A stretch of DNA of 64,000 nucleotides, from NCBI GenBank assembly GCA_002707695.1, contig PANR01000018.1, positions 1,865-65,864 of the forward strand, read 5' to 3'. The position numbers were made by a program, and so were the translations under genes. Below, piece by piece: positions 7,425-63,839 of this stretch (its first letter is position 1; every line of letters starts with the position of its first letter). Source of the stretch: Legionellaceae bacterium. GTDB taxonomy: Bacteria; Pseudomonadota; Gammaproteobacteria; UBA12402. Under the pieces are notes generated by a model. It searched no databases and had not been told where the DNA came from. It saw only the letters and a list, made by a program, of their open reading frames with translations.

Positions 7425-9491
7425 ATGGAGCATAATTTGGTGCGTAATTTTTCGTTGGTTACCAAACAAGCAAAGCCAAACTTACCAAAAATAACCAACC
7501 AGGCCAGACCTGATTTTGAACAAAAAACACGCTTCTGGCTTGCACTTTTTATTTTCTTTGCTGCTTTCTTCCTACGATTTGCCTACCTCCATCGCCAAGG
7601 CTTTTGGGATAGTGATGAATATTATTCATACCGCTTCATCGTTGCCTATTTGCTGCACCACAACCTTGATCCAGCTTCAGGGGGAGATATGTGGGGTAGA
7701 CCGTTTGGTTTTTTAACCTCATATTTCTTCATGAAACTTTTTGGCTTTACCCCTTTTTCTACCCACATCAAGAGCGCACTTTTTGGATTTCTCAGTATTG
7801 TTATTGGCTACATTGTCGGGGAGAGGCATCTGGGCAAAAATGCGGGATTATTTGCAGCCGCTCTAATGACAAGTTTGTATAGCCTGGTTTACTACTCACG
7901 CACAATGAAAATGACTGCACCCTCTATGTTATTTTGTGCTTTAGCAATCTGGATTTTATTTGAAATTATGAATACACCCGGCATACAAAAGCACGCTTTA
8001 TGCGGCCTCATGCTTGGTTTTATGATCACCACTCATCCTGCCACTATACCGATGGCTTTTTCTATTTTAATGCTATTAGGTATCGTCACGCTTATTAAAG
8101 AAAAAAACTTTAAAACCACCTATATTTACGGCCTACTCACCTTGCTTGGCCTTGCCATCCCGATAATAGGCTGCGAGTTATTTTATCTCCGAACAAAGCT
8201 TTTACCATGGTGGCACATGACGCGGCACGCTGATTACTTAAGCAATGTATTCTTTACCAGTGTTAATGGCGCCCAGCCCCAGTGGGAACACGCCAAACCC
8301 CATCTTTCATTTTTCCTGGGTGAAATTCGAAACAATGGAAAACCGCTTTTGTATGCCATTATTGCCGGACAACTATTTTCTGCGCTGAACTTAACAACTA
8401 AAAAAATGAAACCATTTTTACTCACTATCATGTTTTGGTTACCTGTATTAATTTACACGTATATTCTGCACACGACAGAGGCTGAACGAGACATCTTTAC
8501 CTCCCTATTCCCTGGATGCTTAGTTGTGGGCTATATGTTAGCGCGCATAATCAACCAACTCAAATCAACAGGCATACTTAAAGCAACGGCGCTAACAGCC
8601 ATAACAATCATTTTGTTAGCTTACGGCTTACCCAGAAGCTTTCCAATCATTAAAAACGCATCGGCTGCACAAAACATATATGACGTGATTGGTAATGAGC
8701 AAGCCTCTATGACTCGCCCCTCAACCAATACCGCTCAGTGGCAGCACTACTACTTCACCAATAACGCTCTCTTTGTGGATGGCTGGAACGATGTGTTAAC
8801 TAACTTTTTACTCAATCGGGCGAGCTATTTCATACAACTTACACCAGGCTGGACAAAAAAAACGAATTTCAGCAACACTGAAAAATTCGCGACGTCATAC
8901 AAAACAGCAAACAGCAACGGACGCTTTTCTACCACCTACCTGTACACGCCAAAACAACTTGAAACTATCTTTAAAAACAAATTTTCTCTGACAAAAATTA
9001 AAACCATTGACTTAAATACATTTTCCTCAGTTAAAGATATCCGAGGAAACAGCCCTCTAAATGAATTAATTTCAAAGAAAGGCAAGCAAGCCACCATTAC
9101 CATTCCGCTCAATGCCAACCTTTTAGTCGTTAGCGGAAAAATTGCTTTAAACCCTAGCATAGGAGAAAAGATTAACATCGCCATTGGTAATCACAACAAC
9201 CCAACTGCCTATGCTGTAAAATCGTTTTCTCCACGACAACGCAGCCTAATTTTACCAAACGAGAAAGCAACAAGTATATTTTGCGTGTGGAAATTATCCG
9301 GCAAACAACCCACTCAGCTAACACTCTCCGCTCTATTAAGCAAACATCTATCGTTATTAACCTTGCTGACAAATACGCAAGCAACATTTGATTATTTTTC
9401 AACGATAAGCAAAAAACAGATAAAAGCCTTTTCAGTTACCTTTTATCACATTCCAGAACAGTATCTACCGCAAAACATGCCGACCCTTTAA
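7425..9491 (+). CDS. GT-C fold glycosyltransferase (ArnT / PMT-like, GT39/GT83-type) with a C-terminal periplasmic domain; paralog 1
   Basis: The 688-aa polytopic N-terminal part carries the first-loop motif FWDSDEYYSY (compare ArnT WQPDETRYAE). It is a close paralog of 18889..20940. Confidence 0.6.
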   Translation: MEHNLVRNFSLVTKQAKPNLPKITNQARPDFEQKTRFWLALFIFFAAFFLRFAYLHRQGFWDSDEYYSYRFIVAYLLHHNLDPASGGDMWGRPFGFLTSYFFMKLFGFTPFSTHIKSALFGFLSIVIGYIVGERHLGKNAGLFAAALMTSLYSLVYYSRTMKMTAPSMLFCALAIWILFEIMNTPGIQKHALCGLMLGFMITTHPATIPMAFSILMLLGIVTLIKEKNFKTTYIYGLLTLLGLAIPIIGCELFYLRTKLLPWWHMTRHADYLSNVFFTSVNGAQPQWEHAKPHLSFFLGEIRNNGKPLLYAIIAGQLFSALNLTTKKMKPFLLTIMFWLPVLIYTYILHTTEAERDIFTSLFPGCLVVGYMLARIINQLKSTGILKATALTAITIILLAYGLPRSFPIIKNASAAQNIYDVIGNEQASMTRPSTNTAQWQHYYFTNNALFVDGWNDVLTNFLLNRASYFIQLTPGWTKKTNFSNTEKFATSYKTANSNGRFSTTYLYTPKQLETIFKNKFSLTKIKTIDLNTFSSVKDIRGNSPLNELISKKGKQATITIPLNANLLVVSGKIALNPSIGEKINIAIGNHNNPTAYAVKSFSPRQRSLILPNEKATSIFCVWKLSGKQPTQLTLSALLSKHLSLLTLLTNTQATFDYFSTISKKQIKAFSVTFYHIPEQYLPQNMPTL

Positions 9492-18888: not shown

Positions 18889-20940
18889 ATGCAAATTTTA
18901 AGAGCAACTGGTGATAAAATAAAAACTGCGCTTTTGAAAACATTCCATGCCTATACTCAGCTTAATTCTGAACAAAAAACGCGTCTAACCCTTGCGCTCT
19001 TGATTTTTTTTACTGGATTTTTCCTCAGATTTGCCTACCTGAAGTATCAAGGCTTTTGGGACAGTGATGAATATGCGTCATATGCAGCCATGATGGGACA
19101 AATTCTTCAAGGAGACTTGTCTCATTTTTTGGGTGGCAATATGTGGGGGAGACCTTTTGGGTTCTTAACCTCGTATTTTTTCATGAAAATCTTCGGCTTC
19201 ACCCCTTACGCAATTCACATTAAAAGCGCACTACTTGGATTTTGTACCATTGTAATAGGCTACATCATTGGGGAGAAACACTTGTGTAAAAATGCTGGGT
19301 TATTTGCAGCAGCATTAATAGCGAGTTCGTATGAGCTTGTTTACTACTCACGCACAATGAAAATGACAGCCCCGTCTATGTTTTTCTGCGCACTGGCAAT
19401 ATGGATTTTATTTGAAATCATAGACAACCCCGGCACCCAGCGGCATGCTTTGTGCGGACTGATGTTAGGTTTTATGCTCACCACACACCCTGCGACCATC
19501 CCCATGACAGCAACTATCTTACTTATGCTTGCCATTGTAACAATCGCAAAGGAAAAAAAAATTGGGCAATCGCTAAACTATGGTCTTCTCACCTTGCTAG
19601 GCCTCCTCACCCCCATCATTGGCTGTGAATTGTTTTACCTTAGCGCAAAAATTTTGCCATGGTGGCATACCGCACCCAACATAGATTACATGAAATTTTT
19701 ATTCTTCTACAACCAACATGGGCCAGCTAACCTACAACATGTAAAACCTCATATTTCTTCTTTTCTCGGTGAAATAACAAATAACGGTAAAGCTCTCTTG
19801 TATCTTATAGGGGCTGGGCAGGCAATTTCCCTGATTGCTTTGCTTAAAGGAAAAATTAAACCCTTTTTACTCAGCATGATATTTTGGCTGCCGATTTTAA
19901 TCTACACCTATATCCTGCACCCTGTAGTGGCTGAACGCAATATTTTTACATCTCTATTTCCGGGCTGCTTGATTGGGGGGTATTTTTTTGCATACCTCAT
20001 TAATCAGACCAAACTAACATCGTTCCTTAAATCTTTCGCCATAGCAATCACATCATTCGCGCTCCTGACCTATGGAATTCCCAAAAGCCTTCCTATCATC
20101 AAAAATGCATCGGCCGCACAGAACATATATGATTATATTGGCAGCCAACAGGCCTCTATGACCCGCCCCTCCAAAAGCGTATATCAGTGGGAACATTACT
20201 ACTTCACAAACAGTTCGCTTTCCGTTGACAATTGGAGTGATGTGTTAAAAAATTTTCTACTGAACCGAGCTAATTATCTCATCCAACTCACCCCCTCCTG
20301 GACAAACGCTACTGGCTTTGAAGACACACAAAAATATGCAACTCAATTTAGGACGGCAGAGAGTCATGGTGGATTTTCTGTTTACTATCTCTACAATCCA
20401 AAACAGCTCGAAAAAATTTTGAAAGATAAATTTTCTCTGACAAAAATCAAATCAATTAATCTAAAAAGATTTTCTTCACTGACTGGCATACAAAAAAGTC
20501 AAAGCAACAAATATATGTTTGAAAAAAAAGCAAAGCAAATTATTATTAACATCCCAACTGACGCCAACCTCCTAGCAATTAGTGGGAGAATTCCCCTTAA
20601 TCCCGATATCGGAGAAAGTATTAATATTGCAATTGGAAACAAAAGCAAACCCACTCTGTACACCTTAAAATCTTTTTCTCCTCATGAAAACGGGGCGTTA
20701 TTACCCAACGAGAAAGAAACTAACATTTTTTATGTCTGGGAACTAGCTGGTAAAAAACTCACTCAACTGACTCTGTCCCCCTTGCTGACCAAGCGTTTAT
20801 CGCTGCGCGCTTTGCTGAGAAACTTTCCAGAAGCATTTGCCTATTTTTTTGCAACTGACAAAAAACAAATAAAAGGCTTTTCTGTCACCTTCTATCACAT
20901 CCCTAACAAATATCTACCAAAAAATATGCCGTCGATTTAA
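18889..20940 (+). CDS. GT-C fold glycosyltransferase (ArnT/PMT-like); paralog 2
   Basis: The 683-aa protein has the motif FWDSDEYASY. It is collinear and highly similar to 7425..9491 (for example GGNMWGRPFGFLTSYFFMK and SAAQNIYD). Confidence 0.6.
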   Translation: MQILRATGDKIKTALLKTFHAYTQLNSEQKTRLTLALLIFFTGFFLRFAYLKYQGFWDSDEYASYAAMMGQILQGDLSHFLGGNMWGRPFGFLTSYFFMKIFGFTPYAIHIKSALLGFCTIVIGYIIGEKHLCKNAGLFAAALIASSYELVYYSRTMKMTAPSMFFCALAIWILFEIIDNPGTQRHALCGLMLGFMLTTHPATIPMTATILLMLAIVTIAKEKKIGQSLNYGLLTLLGLLTPIIGCELFYLSAKILPWWHTAPNIDYMKFLFFYNQHGPANLQHVKPHISSFLGEITNNGKALLYLIGAGQAISLIALLKGKIKPFLLSMIFWLPILIYTYILHPVVAERNIFTSLFPGCLIGGYFFAYLINQTKLTSFLKSFAIAITSFALLTYGIPKSLPIIKNASAAQNIYDYIGSQQASMTRPSKSVYQWEHYYFTNSSLSVDNWSDVLKNFLLNRANYLIQLTPSWTNATGFEDTQKYATQFRTAESHGGFSVYYLYNPKQLEKILKDKFSLTKIKSINLKRFSSLTGIQKSQSNKYMFEKKAKQIIINIPTDANLLAISGRIPLNPDIGESINIAIGNKSKPTLYTLKSFSPHENGALLPNEKETNIFYVWELAGKKLTQLTLSPLLTKRLSLRALLRNFPEAFAYFFATDKKQIKGFSVTFYHIPNKYLPKNMPSI

Positions 20941-36031: not shown

Positions 36032-36325
36032 TCAACCTCTCAATAAGCGCTCAATTGTTTTTGGATCCTTCTGGATTAATTTTAACAGGACTTTAGCTGG
36101 ACCTTGAGGCTGACGTGTCCCCTGCTCCCAATGCTGCAGCGTTCTCAAATTAAATGAGTACAGAGCTGCAAATTGCTCTTGCGTCAATCCAATTTTTTGA
36201 CGAATCTTTCTAACATCAACCTCGCCTCGCAACACAATATGCTCAATTCCCTTCGACTTATCACCTTTCATAAACTCAATGGCATCTTCTAAGCCCTTTT
36301 TCAATCGCTGCCCCATGTCACTCAT
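36032..36325 (-). CDS. higA: HTH antitoxin (HigA2/NadS-like)
   Basis: The 97-aa protein has an HTH (LTQEQFAALYSFNLRTLQHWEQG) and is downstream of, and overlapping, the RelE/ParE-family toxin. Confidence 0.7.
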   Translation of the reverse strand: MSDMGQRLKKGLEDAIEFMKGDKSKGIEHIVLRGEVDVRKIRQKIGLTQEQFAALYSFNLRTLQHWEQGTRQPQGPAKVLLKLIQKDPKTIERLLRG

Positions 36326-36672
36326 TTTACACCTCGCCTGTAACTTAATTTCAATTCATTGGCCAATTTAGACAACATCTTTAGCTCTGATTTATCAAGA
36401 TCTTCTTTGTCATGCTTTGAATAAAGATCCAGCAACACAAGTGGGGCCGTATTATTATAGAAATAATAAATCACTCTCACTCCACCTCTTTTGCCTTGGC
36501 CCGATTGCCTCCATCTTAATTTTCTCAAACCACCACTGCCAGGAATCACATTTCCCGACTCTGGAAACTGTGCCAAAAAAGAAATCATTAGAGACCTCTC
36601 ATCATCTGTCAAATACTTCTTGGCCCCACCCAAAAAACAAGGCATCTCAACAACACTGCAATATTCTAGCAT
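36322..36672 (-). CDS. higB: RelE/ParE-superfamily toxin (HigB2-like)
   Basis: The region GGLRKLRW..GKRGGVRVIYYF...LLDLYSKHDKEDL matches HigB2-type toxins. The true start is possibly the internal Met at MPCFLGG. Confidence 0.65.
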   Translation of the reverse strand: MLEYCSVVEMPCFLGGAKKYLTDDERSLMISFLAQFPESGNVIPGSGGLRKLRWRQSGQGKRGGVRVIYYFYNNTAPLVLLDLYSKHDKEDLDKSELKMLSKLANELKLSYRRGVK

Positions 36673-36833
36673 AAGCTACTCCATTGGTCGACTTAATTTG
36701 CGCAAAAATTGGGAAAACATTTGGAAGAAAAACAAAGGTTCCGCCATCATAGCAACAAATGTCTATGGCAAACAAACCCTTTTTGACTGCCTAGCGGTCT
36801 TGCTGAAAGAACTGCGTGAAGGGTTGGTCGAAC

Positions 36834-36894
36834 AAACCCTGATTGGACAGGATGTCCAATCCGGAGCGAGGCAGAGATGTACGTGAGCGTGTTT
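36834..36894. repeat. 61-bp core copy of a small dispersed repeat (palindromic TTGGACAGGATGTCCAA core); related to the element at 62236..62388
   Basis: It matches 62305..62364 almost exactly, except for a 6-7-nt central variable patch. Confidence 0.7.
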
Positions 36895-37006
36895 GCAAGC
36901 AACATGAGTAAAGAATTAATCAAACAGCCTCTCATCTCTTTTATTTTCAAATATCACAAGATAAACTAGCCCCACGCAGATAACCCAACACAGCAAGGAA
37001 AACATC

Positions 37007-41491: not shown

Positions 41492-41747
41492 CTTTTCTCA
41501 CTCATCAAGCCTATTGACTTGATCATTTTTTGCTATACTTGGTGAAATAAGGCCCAGATGCTAGCACAACGGCTTGCTGATAGCAAAAGCATGCTAACGC
41601 ATTGATTAAAATGGCATCCCCGATGGAAAATAACTTGCCGCATAATCAAGTCAAATGATATATTCGTTTGCACTCATCAACGAATATCAATTAAAAATAT
41701 TTGCACAATAACGCATAAAGCAACTACGTAGAAAGAGGGGAATTTGC

Positions 41748-44241: not shown

Positions 44242-44318
44242 TTACAGCCCAAATTATAAACTAAACCTACATGGGAGCCTGAGGGCCAGGCAAGTATAAT
44301 AATTAACATTGATTAAAA

Positions 44319-44394
44319 TGGCATCCCCGACGGGAGTCGAACCCGTGTTTTCACCGTGAAAGGGTGGTGTCCTAGGCCTCTAGACGACGGGGAC
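44319..44394 (-). tRNA. tRNA-Glu (anticodon UUC)
   Basis: The reverse complement is GTCCCCGTCGTCTAGAGGCCTAGGACACCACCCTTTCACGGTGAAAACACGGGTTCGACTCCCGTCGGGGATGCCA. It folds as a cloverleaf with anticodon loop CUUUCAC and an encoded CCA. Confidence 0.9.
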
Positions 44395-60259: not shown

Positions 60260-60309
60260 TTACATATTAATCAGGATGAATAGAGAGTTGTGAGAGTAAA
60301 TCGCTTGCT

Positions 60310-60399
60310 GTCATTCCCGACCTGCACCCACAGGGCACTTATCGGGAATCCAGTTTTTTATCAAAGATTCCTGGATCCCGCATCGAGTGCGGGATGACA
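60310..60399. repeat. nested palindromic element in the mreB/gatC divergent intergenic region
   Basis: It contains the inverted repeats ATTCCCGA/TCGGGAAT (60313-60320 and 60342-60349) and ATCCCGCA/TGCGGGAT (60375-60382 and 60388-60395), plus an outer pair GTCATTCCCG...CGGGATGAC. Confidence 0.5.
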
Positions 60400-60479
60400 A
60401 CCTTCCAAATCGGGGTAACTTGAGCGCGTTTAGAAGAAAGGGTATGATCTCCCACTCGATCAGCTAGGCAACTTGACAT

Positions 60480-60770: not shown

Positions 60771-62229
60771 ATACGTTATGCACGAAAAAACCATTAGACA
60801 ACTGCGCACCATGCTAGATAACAAAGAAATATCGAGTGTTGAACTGACGCAACATTTCTTAGCACGCATTAAATCTGACGAAACAAATAGCTTTATTACC
60901 ATCACCGAAGAACACGCACTGGCTGCCGCTAGCGCTGCCGACAAACAAATCGCGGCGGGAAAAACCAGTGCATTAACTGGCATACCTATTGCACAAAAAG
61001 ATATTTTTTGCACGCAAGGTATTCGCTCAAGCGCTGGCTCAAAAATTCTTGATCCTTTTATTTCACCTTACGATGCTACGAGCGTGAGCAAACTCAAACA
61101 AGCTGGCACGGTGATGTTGGGCAAAACCAACATGGATGATTGCGCGATGGGCTCATCCAACGAAAATAGTTATTACGGGCCTTGCAAAAATCCGTGGAAC
61201 ACTGCTCATGTCCCCGGTGGGTCTTCAGGCGGCTCTGCTGCCGCTATTGCTGCAGGGTTAACGCCAGCGGCGACTGGCACTGACACCGGCGGCTCAATTC
61301 GCCAACCTGCTGCACTGTGTGGCATTACTGGATTAAAACCTACTTATGGACGTGTTTCCCGCTACGGCATGATTGCGTTTGCCTCAAGCCTCGATCAAGG
61401 CGGGCCGATGGCTCGCACTGCTGAAGACTGCGCAATACTGCTACAAGCGATGGCGGGCTTTGATGAAAAAGATTCAACTTCGGTGAACAAGCCCGTTCCT
61501 GATTATACAGCACACCTCAATGACTCAATCGAAGGTCTTCGCATTGGCTTACCCAAAGAATATTTTAGTGAACAACTCAATCCAGCGATTGCGAACCATA
61601 TTCACGAAGCAGCAAAAACCTTAGAAAAGCAAGGCGCAAAACTGGTAGAAATTAGTTTGCCCAATAATCATTTATCCATTCCCGCTTATTATGTTATTGC
61701 ACCGGCGGAAGCGTCTTCCAATTTATCACGCTACGATGGCGTGCGTTATGGGCACCGTTGTGAAAACCCGAAAGATCTCATTGATTTGTACAAGCGCTCA
61801 CGTGCGGAAGGCTTCGGCGCTGAAGTTCAACGACGCATTTTAACCGGCACTTATGTATTATCAACCGGTTATTACGACGCTTATTATTTAAAAGCACAAA
61901 AAATTCGTCGCTTAATCGCCAATGACTATCAAGCAGCATTTAACGATGTGGATGTCATCTTAGGCCCCACCTCACCCTGCACAGCATTTAAATTGGGTGA
62001 AAAAAGCGATGACCCAGTGGCCATGTACTTATCAGATATTTATACCATTGCGGTAAATTTAGCAGGTTTGCCCGGAATTTCGGTGCCCGCTGGGTTTGTC
62101 GATGGATTACCGGTTGGTTTACAACTGATTAGCAATCATTTTACTGAGGAAAAATTATTAAACGTCGCCCATCAGTATCAACAAGTCACTGATTGGCACA
62201 ACAGGCGCCCTGGCGGAAAAACATCTTGA
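60760..62229 (+). CDS. gatA: amidotransferase subunit A (amidase signature family)
   Basis: The amidase signature [10 protein letters not shown] and the catalytic Ser/Lys context are present. Confidence 0.9.
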
Positions 62230-62235
62230 TAGAAA

Positions 62236-62388
62236 CAAAAAATTGTCGTGTGTTTTTCCGAAACACACAACAATAGAAACAAAAAATTGTCGTGTGTTTT
62301 GACGAAACCCTGATTGGACAGGACGTCCAATCCGGAGCGATACAGGATGTACTTGAGCGTGTTTCGGAAAAACACACGACAATTTTTA
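62236..62388. mobile_element. MITE-like element with roughly 20-bp terminal inverted repeats (AAAAATTGTCGTGTGTTTT ... AAAACACACGACAATTTTT), carrying the palindromic core shared with 36834..36894
   Basis: The TIRs are visible directly in the sequence. The left end is tandemly duplicated (40-bp period, 62226-62293). The element sits in a 176-bp gap between gatA and gatB, which normally abut. Confidence 0.65.
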
Positions 62389-62405
62389 ATAAATAGAGAA
62401 ACACC

Positions 62406-63839
62406 ATGCAATGGGAAACCATCATCGGACTTGAAGTCCACGCACAATTAGCTACGAAAAGTAAAATCTTTTCAGGCGCCTCAACAACCTACGGCGCAGA
62501 GCCGAATGTACAAGCTTGTGCAATAGATCTTGCCATGCCTGGCGTTTTACCTGTGCTCAACCATGAAGCTGTCAATATGGCCATTAAATTTGGTTGCGCC
62601 ATTGACGCGCAGATCAACAAAAAATCAGTCTTTGCTCGCAAAAACTATTTCTACCCTGACTTACCCAAAGGCTATCAAATTAGCCAGTTTGAATTGCCCA
62701 TAGTCGGCAAGGGACATCTCGACATCAACTTGCCTGATGGCAACAGCAAACGCATTGGCGTGACGCGCGCGCATTTAGAAGAAGATGCAGGCAAATCATT
62801 ACATGAAGATTTTCACGGCATGACAGGCGTTGATTTAAATCGCGCGGGTGTACCGTTACTTGAAATTGTCTCAGAACCTGACATGCGCTCACCTGAAGAA
62901 GCCATTAGTTATTTGAAAACACTTCACGCGTTGGTGCGCTATTTAGAAATTTGTGATGGCAATATGCAAGAAGGCTCATTTCGTTGCGATGTCAATGTTT
63001 CTGTTCGCCCTGTTGGGCAAGAACAATTCGGCACGCGTGCTGAAATTAAAAACGTTAACTCATTTCGTTCAGTGGAGCGCGCGATTAAATACGAAGTTGA
63101 AAGACAAATTGACCTGATTAGCAATGGCAAAGACGTTGTACAAGAAACACGCCTGTTCGATGCGAATAAAAATATCACGCGCAGCATGCGATCAAAAGAA
63201 GATGCGCAAGACTATCGTTATTTTCCAGATCCCGACTTGTTGCCACTCATACTCGCTGATGAAAACATCGAAAAAATCAGAAAAAATTTGCCTGAATTGC
63301 CGCATGAAAAATGCGAGCGCTTTCAGCAAGCTTACGAGTTAAGCGCTTATGATGCCAACGTTTTAATTAGCGATCTTGATTTGGCGCATTATTTTGAAGC
63401 TGTTGTCAGCAATACCGACGCTAAACCTAAACTAGCCGCCAACTGGATTAGCAGTGAATTGCTCGGCCTGTTAAACAAGGAGAGTTTGTCTATCACTCAA
63501 AGCCCTATTAGCGCTGACCAACTTGCTGGGCTGCTAACACGAATCCACGACAACACCATTTCAGGCAAAATTGCAAAAGACGTTTTTCTTGCTATGTTTG
63601 AAGGTGAAGGAAGCGCTGATGATATTATTGAGAAAAAAGGCTTGAAACAAATTACCGATACAGCGGCCATTGAAAAAATTATTGATGACGTTATCGCTAA
63701 TAGCCCAACACAACTTGAGCAATACCGCAGCGGTAAAGACAAACTATTTGGCTACTTCGTCGGACAAACGATGAAAGCCACCCAAGGCAAGGCAAACCCT
63801 GCTCAAGTCAATGCAATGTTAAAGAAAAAATTGCAGTAA
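62406..63839 (+). CDS. gatB: amidotransferase subunit B
   Basis: The N-terminus has the pattern W(E)[11 protein letters not shown]. The protein is 477 aa with a C-terminal YqeY-like domain. Confidence 0.9.

What the first reader, a model, noticed from the sequence alone, without database searches (positions are those of the whole stretch)
62226..62400. MITE-like element with 20-bp TIRs splitting gatA-gatB, and a second copy of its core at 36.8 kb
gatA and gatB normally abut, but here they are separated by 176 bp. The spacer contains terminal inverted repeats AAAAATTGTCGTGTGTTTT / AAAACACACGACAATTTTT. The left TIR region is tandemly duplicated (40-bp period). There is also a central palindrome TTGGACAGGACGTCCAA. 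The 60-bp core (62305-62364) recurs at 36834-36894 in the higB / sohB intergenic region, without the TIRs. This indicates a small non-autonomous mobile repeat family active in this genome. Being inside the gatCAB operon, it may also form an RNA hairpin that modulates gatB expression.
Basis: seen in the sequence. Interest (0 to 1): 0.55.

Follow-up and report, generated by a model that had tools for sequence, protein, structure and literature searches.

The report
Hairpin repeat with host-copied arms
The 176-base gap between gatA and gatB holds a real, very stable hairpin repeat from a small dispersed family in this uncultured marine Legionella-like bacterium, but its long "inverted repeats" look like copies of the neighbouring host DNA, not ends carried by a transposon.

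Summary
The gatA-gatB spacer is 176 nt. It contains a 28-nt perfect direct repeat, a perfect 29-nt inverted repeat and a ~65-nt core that recurs at 36.8 kb (92% identity). It is identical in three independent assemblies.

The MITE reading is only partly right. I found more copies:
- Copy C lies on the same scaffold just past the window, inside the ybgF signal-peptide coding region and in frame.
- Copy D lies upstream of gatC in a relative, with a truncated remnant at the same place in the window.
- Copy E is a weak candidate in the relative.

The cores share a three-way-junction fold with compensatory changes. No Rfam family matches.

Close relatives give empty sites. One has gatA and gatB 2 nt apart. 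Another has pal and ybgF 2 nt apart, without the 123-nt insertion.

That ybgF empty site shows that one "TIR" arm of copy C is native ybgF coding sequence. The other arm is its inverted duplicate. An 8-bp direct duplication flanks the insert. The same polarity (native arm 3' of the core) is seen upstream of gatC, and probably at gatA-gatB.

Best reading: a selfish or mutational structured repeat whose arms are templated locally, probably by replication template switching. An effect on gatB expression is possible but untested. This is a new variant of a known kind, of moderate interest.

The parts
60778..62229 (+). gatA. Its last 14 nt (62216-62229, including CGGAAAAACA and the stop codon) already belong to the 44-nt repeat unit.
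   Evidence: Amidase domain PF01425 on the called gene L001 8373-9824, which is window 60778-62229. Direct repeat D1 covers 62216-62259 and 62260-62303. CGGAAAAACA at 62214-62223 repeats the junction of the core with the right arm (I5).
62229..62256 (+). First copy of the 28-nt perfect direct repeat ATAGAAACAAAAAATTGTCGTGTGTTTT (left arm L1)
   Evidence: blastn 100% over 28 nt against 62273-62300; direct repeat D1
62242..62274 (+). H1, a small 'solo' hairpin without a core: ATTGTCGTGTGTTT-TTCCG-AAACACACAACAAT. On the minus strand it looks like an intrinsic terminator.
   Evidence: I4 (14-nt arms, 93%). Terminator-like hit on the minus strand. L1 plus TCCGAAACAC (62238-62266) is the perfect 29-nt complement of 62359-62387 (I1).
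62273..62300 (+). Second copy of the 28-nt direct repeat. It contains the left arm L2 (62282-62300), inferred to be an inverted duplicate of the native right arm.
   Evidence: Polarity is inferred by analogy with copy C and from the orthology of the right arm with the relative's gatB leader.
62301..62368 (+). Core copy A, a three-way junction. P1 base pairs 62303-62308 with 62361-62366. P2 hairpin is 62309-62335 (tip TTGGAC-AGGAC-GTCCAA). P3 hairpin is 62337-62360.
   Evidence: MFE fold; covariance-model hit 62298-62371 at 91.6 bits; pair counts on four copies
62369..62387 (+). Right arm R2 (AAAACACACGACAATTTTT), probably native gatB leader sequence
   Evidence: The 41 nt before the gatB ATG align without gaps to the relative's leader: 25/41, 0 of 20000 shuffles. 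For the first 23 nt (the core junction plus R2): 13/23, p 0.007.
62388..62405 (+). gatB leader with the conserved ATAGAGA motif. It is left unpaired by the hairpin.
   Evidence: Conserved between the window and L087; unpaired in the fold
62406..63839 (+). gatB. Codons 4-12 resemble the 5' half of the core, in the same frame (unexplained).
   Evidence: GatB_N and GatB_Yqey domains. 19-21 of 26 nt match; shuffle p about 0.0015; 5 of 2548 window segments score as high.
36827..36901 (+). Core copy B, between the RelE/HigB-like toxin gene (minus strand) and sohB (plus strand). Only a weak, degenerate flanking inverted repeat.
   Evidence: Covariance-model hit at 87.1 bits; 92% identical to A. It lies in a variable insertion site: relatives lack the toxin-antitoxin pair there.
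36767..36791 (+). Partial duplicate of the 5' edge of core B, 60 nt upstream (GGCAAACAAACCCTTTTTGACTGCC)
   Evidence: Read. The exact 10-mer AACAAACCCT occurs only at 36771 and 36831 in the window.
60382..60460 (+). Remnant D' upstream of gatC. It is orthologous to full copy D of the relative. Only the 3' part of the core is kept (60417-60435). It is flanked by a 23-nt inverted repeat whose right arm is the conserved gatC leader.
   Evidence: CTTGAGCG..TTTAGAAGAAAGGGTAT conserved with L087; inverted repeat 60382-60404 / 60438-60460, 78%

Best explanation
The gatA-gatB spacer holds one member (copy A) of a lineage-restricted family of short structured repeats in an uncultured marine Legionellaceae-like bacterium.

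**Shown**
- The conserved unit is a ~65-nt core (RAAACCYT...GGAGCG...GGATG.AC.TGAGCGTRTTT). It folds as a three-way junction: a closing stem P1 and hairpins P2 and P3.
- The core occurs at non-orthologous sites: gatA/gatB, higB/sohB, inside ybgF, and upstream of gatC.
- In intact copies the core sits at the tip of a long, nearly perfect hairpin (19-32 bp).
- The arms of that hairpin differ from copy to copy.
- At ybgF, one arm is pre-existing host coding sequence, the other arm is its inverted duplicate, and an 8-bp direct duplication flanks the 123-nt in-frame insert.

**Inferred**
- The long arms are not carried by the element. They are templated from the flank 3' of the core, most simply by replication template switching at a quasi-palindrome. 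Repeated rounds produced the nested direct and inverted repeats seen at gatA-gatB.
- The core spreads by an unknown copy mechanism. No transposase was seen.
- The element is essentially selfish or neutral DNA.
- Because gatB has no predicted promoter of its own, the element must be transcribed within the gatCAB mRNA. There it would form a -50 to -64 kcal/mol hairpin followed by U5, 18 nt upstream of the gatB start. That could cause partial termination, RNase III processing or a 3'-exonuclease block, and so uncouple gatA and gatB levels. This is a side effect and not a demonstrated function.
For: **Copies.** A and B lie in the window. C is at L001 18984-19059 (blastn E 3e-10; sequence). D is at L087 7928-8000 (blastn E 1e-3). 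D' is the window remnant. The covariance model finds these and only a weak fifth copy.

**Structure.** A and C fold independently into the same three-way junction (z -8.4 and -10.9). On four copies, 88% of cells pair, against 19-38% with slid partners. Five pairs carry changes on both sides.

**Empty sites.** A relative with 88%-identical GatB has a 2-nt gatA/gatB spacer. Relative L089, 86-90% identical in DNA, has pal and ybgF 2 nt apart and lacks the 123-nt insert.

**Host-derived arm.** The left part of the filled ybgF site, TTAAAAAGATGGGCGTACGTGTGTTTAC, aligns with L089's coding sequence TTAAAAAAATTGCCGTACGTGTGTTTAC. The second arm is its reverse complement. It matches the window organism's own version at 25/26 positions and L089's at 22/26. 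The direct duplication GTGTTTAC flanks the insert.

**Same polarity elsewhere.** Upstream of gatC the right arm is the conserved gatC leader. At gatA-gatB the stretch from the core junction through R2 and the leader to the gatB ATG aligns with the relative's leader (25/41, 0 of 20000 shuffles).

**Transcription context.** No promoter is predicted on the plus strand in the spacer. The ribosome-binding site is unpaired in the fold.

**Mechanistic precedent.** Template switching creates perfect hairpin stems in a single event (PMC8794818, PMC10710096). Quasi-palindrome template-switch mutations are established in E. coli (PMC7202029).
Against: - Only four to five copies from about 100 kb of DNA were available. 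The whole genome could not be searched.
- The host-derived arm is demonstrated directly at one locus (C). It is supported at D', where the arms are only 78% complementary, and only indirectly at A.
- A and C share the inner 9 nt of their arms (CGTGTGTTT / AAACACACG). A short element-borne inverted repeat or a target preference therefore cannot be excluded.
- Copy B keeps a 92%-identical core with almost no arms, which simple neutral decay of a hairpin element does not explain.
- L089 could in principle be a precise deletion between the 8-bp repeats and not a never-occupied site.
- Template switching explains the arms but not how the core reaches new loci.
- No expression data exist.
Confidence: 0.55

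Rival explanations
1. It is a conventional MITE. A non-autonomous transposon with its own terminal inverted repeats is mobilised in trans by a transposase encoded elsewhere in the genome and makes target-site duplications.
For: - Small, non-coding and multi-copy.
- An 8-bp direct duplication flanks copy C.
- A and C share the inner arm motif CGTGTGTTT / AAACACACG.
- The site is empty in relatives.
- Coxiella QMITE2 elements have similar size, variable 7-11-nt direct repeats and overlaps with gene 3' ends (PMC5896051).
Against: - The outer arms are unrelated between A, C and D.
- In C, the arm to one side of the core pre-exists in the empty site as coding sequence, so it cannot have been brought by the element.
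- The ends of the 115-nt inserted block of C do not form a terminal inverted repeat.
- No transposase appears among the Pfam-listed genes of about 41 kb of the scaffold.
- Copy B has no arms.
Confidence: 0.15
2. It is a selected cis-regulatory or small RNA. The three-way-junction core is a functional RNA motif (a protein-binding element, riboregulator or new ribozyme) that tunes gatB and other neighbouring genes.
For: - Compensatory changes in P2 and P1, with invariant junction sequences (GGAGCG, TGAGCGTGTTT) across copies that are otherwise about 75% identical.
- In intact copies the non-Watson-Crick pairs are G-U on the core strand, and none are A-C.
- Copies A, B and D point the same way as the downstream gene.
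- MITE-derived small RNAs are known in Coxiella (PMC5896051).
Against: - No Rfam family matches even at E up to 10, including all ribozyme classes.
- Copy C lies antisense to ybgF and inside its coding sequence.
- The element is absent from the same sites in close relatives, so it is not needed for gatCAB expression.
- No promoter or terminator defines an sRNA gene at copy B.
- Four sequences give little statistical power: 17 of 500 shuffles reach the observed number of covarying pairs.
Confidence: 0.1
3. On origin, and compatible with the best explanation: the core was born at the gat locus from a duplicated piece of the gatB 5' coding region. Its native GGAC-loop-GTCC hairpin was extended into P2 by template switching, and the result was later copied elsewhere.
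For: - Core A and gatB codons 4-12 match at 19 of 26 nt in the window and 21 of 26 in the relative. They are in the same reading frame (ETLIGQDVQ against ETIIGLEVH).
- Shuffle p is about 0.0015, and 5 of 2548 window segments score as high.
- Two of the five loci are in the gatCAB operon.
- nhmmer repeatedly picks up the gatB start in unrelated genomes.
Against: - The match is short and was noticed after the fact.
- Copies C and D do not resemble gatB significantly.
- No similarity extends beyond 26 nt.
- A comparable chance hit to hslO of an unrelated genome was also seen.
Confidence: 0.15
4. It is an assembly or chimera artefact of a metagenomic scaffold.
For: The source is a metagenome assembly (TARA scaffold). 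Palindromes can be created by assemblers.
Against: The 176-nt spacer is identical in three assemblies made independently from different accessions. Copy B is also found in a fourth collection (L005). The reading frames of gatA, gatB and ybgF are intact.
Confidence: 0.01

Closest known systems
QMITE2 of Coxiella burnetii (Wachter et al. 2018, PMC5896051)
   Same: Also from Legionellales. Similar size (150-190 bp), very stable hairpin, and variable 7-11-nt direct repeats unique to each copy. Found in intergenic regions and 3' UTRs, overlapping gene 3' ends by a few bases. 'Full' and 'small' (solo-hairpin) versions coexist, as H1 and the full element do here.
   Different: QMITE2 is built on a GTAG-type REP and carries its own TIRs; neither is seen here. 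Sequence similarity could not be tested because no Coxiella genome was in the searchable sets. Host-derived arms are not described for QMITE2.
Rickettsia palindromic elements (RPE) (own knowledge: Ogata et al. 2000; mentioned in the MITE review PMC10969869)
   Same: Short palindromic repeats with no known transposase. They insert in frame into protein-coding genes and are tolerated there, as copy C is in the ybgF signal-peptide region.
   Different: Different phylum-level host (Alphaproteobacteria). No sequence relation was tested. RPEs are 100-150 bp units with family consensus sequences along their whole length, not a core with locally templated arms.
ERIC/IRU and Correia (NEMIS) elements (own knowledge: De Gregorio et al. 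2002-2005)
   Same: Imperfect palindromes of about 100-150 bp inserted between genes of one operon. They are co-transcribed, fold into long RNA hairpins, and alter mRNA processing or stability (RNase III, RNase E). This is the functional analogy for the gatA-gatB copy.
   Different: Those elements have conserved, element-borne TIRs, TA duplications, and hundreds of near-identical copies. Here the arms are copy-specific and an effect on mRNA is untested.
REP / REPIN-RAYT systems (PMC3733652)
   Same: Short extragenic palindromes, sometimes as inverted doublets that form long hairpins, often at operon junctions. A second, REP-like family (TTGTCATCCCCGA...TCGGGGATCCAG) does coexist in this lineage.
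   Different: The arms carry no GTAG or CGTC head. No RAYT gene was seen in the available sequence. A REP does not have a 65-nt branched core.
Template-switch mutations that create hairpins (Monttinen and Loytynoja 2022, PMC8794818; PMC10710096; E. coli quasi-palindrome mutagenesis, PMC7202029)
   Same: A single replication event copies the opposite strand nearby. This produces a perfect inverted duplicate of adjacent sequence and so a long perfect stem, which is the anatomy seen at ybgF.
   Different: Those events are described as local mutations, not as the accompaniment of a dispersed repeat. They do not explain how the core moves between loci.

Membership tests
MITE (classical) | Small (under about 500 bp), non-coding, multiple copies in the genome | tested here: met
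   Units of 65-150 nt. Copies A, B and C plus remnant D' in about 74 kb; D and possibly E in a relative. There is no conserved ORF: frameshifts and a stop codon separate the copies.
MITE (classical) | Terminal inverted repeats carried by the element and shared among copies or with a parent IS | tested here: not met
   The arms of A, C and D are unrelated apart from a 9-nt inner motif shared by A and C. One arm of C is native ybgF coding sequence present in the empty site.
MITE (classical) | Target-site duplication flanking the insertion | tested here: inconclusive
   Copy C has 8 bp, GTGTTTAC, on both sides. This fits a TSD, but it equally fits microhomology-mediated copying or a deletion substrate. 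Copy A has only an imperfect ATAGA(GA)AAC repeat.
MITE (classical) | A cognate transposase or parent IS in the genome | not testable with these tools
   None appears among the Pfam-annotated genes of about 41 kb of the scaffold.
REP/REPIN | Imperfect palindrome of 20-40 nt with a conserved GTAG or CGTC head, plus a RAYT gene | tested here: not met
   The arms begin AAAAATTGTCG (A) and AAAAAGATGGGCG (C), with no GTAG or CGTC head. No Y1-transposase domain appears in the gene lists. Genome-wide absence of RAYT was not testable.
Known RNA families, including self-cleaving ribozymes (Rfam 15) | Match to a curated covariance model | tested here: not met
   Only two tRNAs in the window pass gathering thresholds. 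In the spacer, every hit with E up to 10 scores far below its family's gathering threshold. The same holds for the relative's spacer.
Rickettsia palindromic elements | Palindromic repeat inserted in frame in ORFs | tested here: met
   Copy C adds 41 codons to ybgF and the frame stays open. This shows the same behaviour only.
Rickettsia palindromic elements | Sequence membership in an RPE family | not tested
Template-switch-generated hairpin | One stem arm is an inverted copy of adjacent pre-existing sequence, absent from the ancestral or empty allele | tested here: met
   Copy C: 26-nt inverted duplicate of native sequence, 25/26, absent from L089. D': the right arm is the conserved gatC leader. 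A: indirect evidence only.
QMITE2 (Coxiella) | Sequence similarity to the CbsR16 / QMITE2 consensus | not testable with these tools
   No Coxiella sequence was available. The strict P2-hairpin pattern of the core had no match in the GTDB representative genomes, but this pattern does not even match family copies C and D.

The most novel reading that the evidence does not exclude
This is a previously undescribed kind of bacterial repeat. A ~65-nt three-way-junction core is copied to new sites, including in frame into genes, without a transposase. At each site it builds its own long perfect hairpin by templating an inverted copy of the host DNA 3' of the core. The 'TIRs' are therefore a product of insertion and not a requirement for it. 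The family may have been born from the 5' end of gatB.
Probability: 0.3. Interest if true: 0.65.

Novelty: new variant of a known kind. Interest (0 to 1): 0.45.

Why it matters
Small palindromic repeats (REP, ERIC, Correia, RPE, QMITE) are common in bacteria. For several of them, RPE above all, the way they spread is unknown.

Here a filled site and an empty site differ by a clean 123-nt in-frame insertion, and one hairpin arm is demonstrably host sequence. That gives a concrete, testable alternative to transposase-mediated mobility: the stems are templated locally.

It also warns against calling any inverted repeat around a repeated core a 'TIR'. For annotation, it shows how such insertions remodel gene ends (the last codons and stop of gatA) and signal peptides (ybgF) in uncultured Legionellales.

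The practical consequence for gatCAB expression is probably small. It could be tested with reporters.

Tried and rejected
- **Rfam.** The whole window at gathering thresholds, and both spacers at E up to 10, gave nothing. I also compared the sequence by eye with the hammerhead and integron attC consensus. Neither fits.
- **Strict P2-hairpin pattern in public collections.** GTDB representative genomes gave 0 hits. Metagenome contigs gave only copy B of the same organism plus one chance hit in a GC-rich genome. In hindsight the pattern was too strict, because P2 varies between copies. These scans therefore say nothing about copy number.
- **Conserved 3' motif in viral contigs.** Six hits, all chance matches inside coding sequence.
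- **Plasmid database, distant mode.** No match.
- **Coding potential of the core.** Open frames exist on both strands, but a frameshift between A and B and a stop codon in D argue against a peptide.
- **A 21-nt match of copy B to hslO of an unrelated genome.** Judged to be chance.
- **Whole-spacer alignment of the window with relative L087.** Only the last ~45 nt (the gatB leader) align. The shared GACGAA[A/G]CCC 10-mer is at chance level (my own estimate).
- **One contig look-up was wasted** on a protein whose start codon differs from the called gene.
- **No further family members** in 80 distant gammaproteobacterial gatB loci or in four loci from 74%-identical relatives.
Full report
**Source and setting**

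The window is part of a 103-kb Tara Oceans metagenome scaffold (ERZ2777187 scaffold_58). NCBI names its GatB and SohB 'MAG: Legionellaceae bacterium'. The gene order is mreDCB (minus strand), then gatC-gatA-gatB (plus strand), followed by three eukaryote-like Ser/Thr kinase genes.

No close relative exists among the GTDB representative genomes; the best GatB identity there is 72%. Three useful relatives were found in metagenome assemblies:
- a JGI contig with 88%-identical GatB, for which only gene coordinates are available, not DNA;
- Logan SRR25654131 (L087 and L088), with 86%-identical GatB and 72-78% DNA identity;
- Logan SRR33375159 (L089), with 86-90% DNA identity.

**Check of the observation**

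gatA ends at 62229 and gatB starts at 62406, a spacer of 176 nt. All the described features are present:
- 19-nt arms at 62282-62300 and 62369-62387;
- a direct repeat of the left region;
- the palindrome TTGGAC-AGGAC-GTCCAA;
- a second copy of the core at 36834-36894, 92% identical over 61 nt.

Three details differ from the finding:
- The direct repeat has a period of 44 nt, with 28 perfectly identical bases (62229-62256 and 62273-62300).
- The best inverted repeat is a perfect 29-mer joining the first left arm to the right arm together with the end of the core (62238-62266 / 62359-62387).
- There is also a small 'solo' hairpin, H1 (62242-62274).

This is the strongest inverted repeat in the 64 kb. 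The spacer is identical in three independent assemblies, so it is not an artefact.

The premise that gatA and gatB 'normally abut' is only half true. In 66 gammaproteobacterial loci the median spacer is about 23 nt, and about a quarter exceed 100 nt.

**More copies**

Sensitive blastn, nhmmer and a covariance model found these:
- Copy C, on the same scaffold about 7.4 kb past the window end (L001 18984-19059, with arms 18965-19085).
- Copy D, upstream of gatC in relative L087 (7928-8000).
- D', a truncated orthologue of D in the window's own mreB-gatC spacer (60382-60460).
- A weak fifth candidate, E, in L088 (3202-3277, E about 0.04).

Nothing was found in 80 distant gatB loci or in relatives with 74%-identical GatB, whose gatA/gatB spacer is 22 nt. 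The family is therefore real, dispersed, and so far restricted to this small clade.

My early scans of the public collections used the P2 hairpin as the pattern and found nothing new. That pattern was too strict because P2 varies among copies. Those scans say nothing about copy number.

**Structure**

Copies A and C fold independently into the same architecture (-49.6 and -71.4 kcal/mol; z -8.4 and -10.9):
- a long outer stem;
- a closing stem P1 (AAAC/GTTT);
- hairpin P2 (CC.GATTGGAC / GTCCAATC.GG in copy A);
- hairpin P3 (GCG...CA.GG / C.TG...CGT).

On an alignment of A-D, 88% of cells pair, against 19-38% when the partners are slid. Five pairs change on both sides, for example G-C to A-U and A-U to C-G in P2 between A and C. 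Seventeen of 500 shuffles reach that number.

The junction sequences (GGAGCG, TGAGCGTGTTT) are invariant. With four sequences this is suggestive and not conclusive.

No Rfam family matches, ribozymes included.

**The key result: what the arms are**

In relative L089, pal and ybgF are 2 nt apart. YbgF begins MKKFYKGLKKLPYVCLLLGLTSLAYA.

In the window organism the same gene reads VKKYCKHLKRWAYVCL-[41 extra codons]-LLLGLASLAYA. The frame stays open.

The DNA alignment shows a clean 123-nt insertion after ...TACGTGTGTTTAC, flanked by an 8-bp direct duplication (GTGTTTAC).

One arm of copy C (AAAAAGATGGGCGTACGTGTGTTTAC in the ybgF sense) is the native coding sequence. It is also present in the empty site. 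The other arm, inside the insertion, is its reverse complement. That arm matches the window organism's own version at 25/26 positions but L089's at only 22/26.

The 'TIR' of copy C was therefore made on the spot from host DNA. It probably arose after the two lineages split.

Two other loci show the same polarity, with the native arm 3' of the core and the inverted copy 5' of it:
- Upstream of gatC, the right arm is the gatC leader, conserved between the window and L087. Each species has its own left arm.
- At gatA-gatB, the 41 nt before the gatB ATG (the core junction, the right arm R2 and the leader) align without gaps to L087's gatB leader (25/41; 0 of 20000 shuffles).

The arms of A, C and D are otherwise unrelated. 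The one exception is a 9-nt inner motif (CGTGTGTTT / AAACACACG) shared by A and C.

**Interpretation**

But the element is not a classical MITE with its own terminal repeats.

The most economical mechanism for the arms is replication template switching at a quasi-palindrome:
1. A nascent strand copies the flank on the far side of the core from the opposite strand.
2. It switches back at the short AAAC/GTTT stem.
3. The result is X - rc(Y) - core - Y.

This process is documented in E. coli (PMC7202029). It has been shown to create perfect stems in one step (PMC8794818, PMC10710096). Repeated rounds would explain the layered direct and inverted repeats at gatA-gatB. One sign of this is that gatA's last codons and stop (GGCGGAAAAACATCTTGA) repeat the junction CGGAAAAACA of the core with the right arm.

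How the core itself reaches new loci is unknown. No transposase is present among the genes listed for about 41 kb. The 8-bp duplication fits either a transposase or microhomology-mediated copying.

**Likely consequence at gatA-gatB**

No promoter is predicted on the plus strand in the spacer, so gatB must be transcribed through the element. The RNA would form a -50 to -64 kcal/mol hairpin ending in U5, 18 nt before the start codon. The ATAGAGA leader would remain unpaired.

By analogy with ERIC, Correia and REP elements (my own knowledge), partial termination, RNase III cleavage or an exonuclease block is plausible.

The element is absent from the same site in close relatives. Copy C is antisense to its host gene. 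Both argue that any such effect is incidental.

**Unexplained**

1. The 5' half of the core resembles gatB codons 4-12 in the same frame (19-21 of 26 nt, p about 0.002). This could mean the family arose from a duplicated gatB 5' end whose native GGAC-loop-GTCC hairpin was extended. It could also be chance.
2. Copy B keeps a 92%-identical core but almost no arms. It sits in a variable site next to a toxin-antitoxin pair that relatives lack.
3. The 9-mer TGTTTCGGA occurs three times in L001, always at elements. One occurrence is at the far left edge of insertion C, next to a CACACAACA motif also present in H1. This suggests that C was copied from an A-like donor.

**Comparison with known elements, and verdict**

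The closest known elements are:
- Coxiella QMITE2, in size, variable direct repeats and full and small versions (PMC5896051);
- Rickettsia RPEs, in the in-frame insertions;
- ERIC and Correia elements, in their co-transcribed hairpins within operons.

The defining MITE feature of element-borne TIRs was tested and not met. I therefore file this as a new variant of the small-palindromic-repeat kind, in which the arms are templated locally.

Interest is moderate. The filled and empty ybgF pair makes a transposase-free mechanism directly testable. Against that, the data come from a few copies in metagenome assemblies, and no function is shown.

Noticed in passing
L001 18951-19101 (same scaffold, about 7.4 kb beyond the window end): Copy C of the repeat is inserted in frame in the signal-peptide region of ybgF/cpoB. 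It adds 41 codons. The hydrophobic core and cleavage site (LLLGLASLAYA-EAP) are regenerated after the insert. Gene callers disagree on the start (328 aa from GTG, or 305 aa from an ATG inside the element).
   Followed up: yes
window 60309-60355; also L089 3188-3234 and L001 17290-17345 (two tandem short copies): A second, REP-like palindromic family, TTGTCAT(T/C)CCCGACCTG...ATCGGG(A/G)ATCCAG, occurs at different loci in two species (96% identity over 47 nt). Its head resembles the inverted repeat ATTGTCATCCC / GGGATGGCAAT that bounds the unrelated 215-nt gatA-gatB spacer of relative L087.
   Followed up: partly
window 41600-41626 and 44307-44333: A 27-nt direct repeat (96%). The second copy overlaps the 3' end of the tRNA at 44322-44394 (minus strand). 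The two copies bracket about 2.7 kb holding two genes with no Pfam domain (534 and 275 aa). This looks like the att sites of an integrated-element remnant.
   Followed up: no
window 36032-36672: A RelE/HigB-like toxin and an HTH antitoxin sit between a 44-aa ORF and sohB. One relative has only a 96-nt gap there. Another has an unrelated 445-aa gene. This is a variable insertion hotspot, and it also holds core copy B.
   Followed up: partly
window 7513-7979 and 18965-19431: Two stretches about 77% identical and 11.4 kb apart, inside the 688-aa and 683-aa ORFs at 7425-9491 and 18889-20940. These are probably paralogous genes.
   Followed up: no
L001 11436-16513 (window 63841 onward and beyond): Three consecutive eukaryote-like Ser/Thr protein kinase genes lie directly downstream of gatB on the opposite strand. 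Relatives have one or two. These are candidate effectors, typical of intracellular Legionellales.
   Followed up: no
window 62406-62440: gatB codons 4-12 (GAAACCATCATCGGACTTGAAGTCCA) match the 5' half of the repeat core in the same frame (19/26 nt). nhmmer picks up the gatB start in many unrelated genomes for this reason.
   Followed up: partly
L001 17040-17200 (beyond the window): An unusually GC-rich stretch with several GC hairpins, between a called 72-aa ORF and the methyltransferase gene, in an otherwise roughly 40% GC genome.
   Followed up: no
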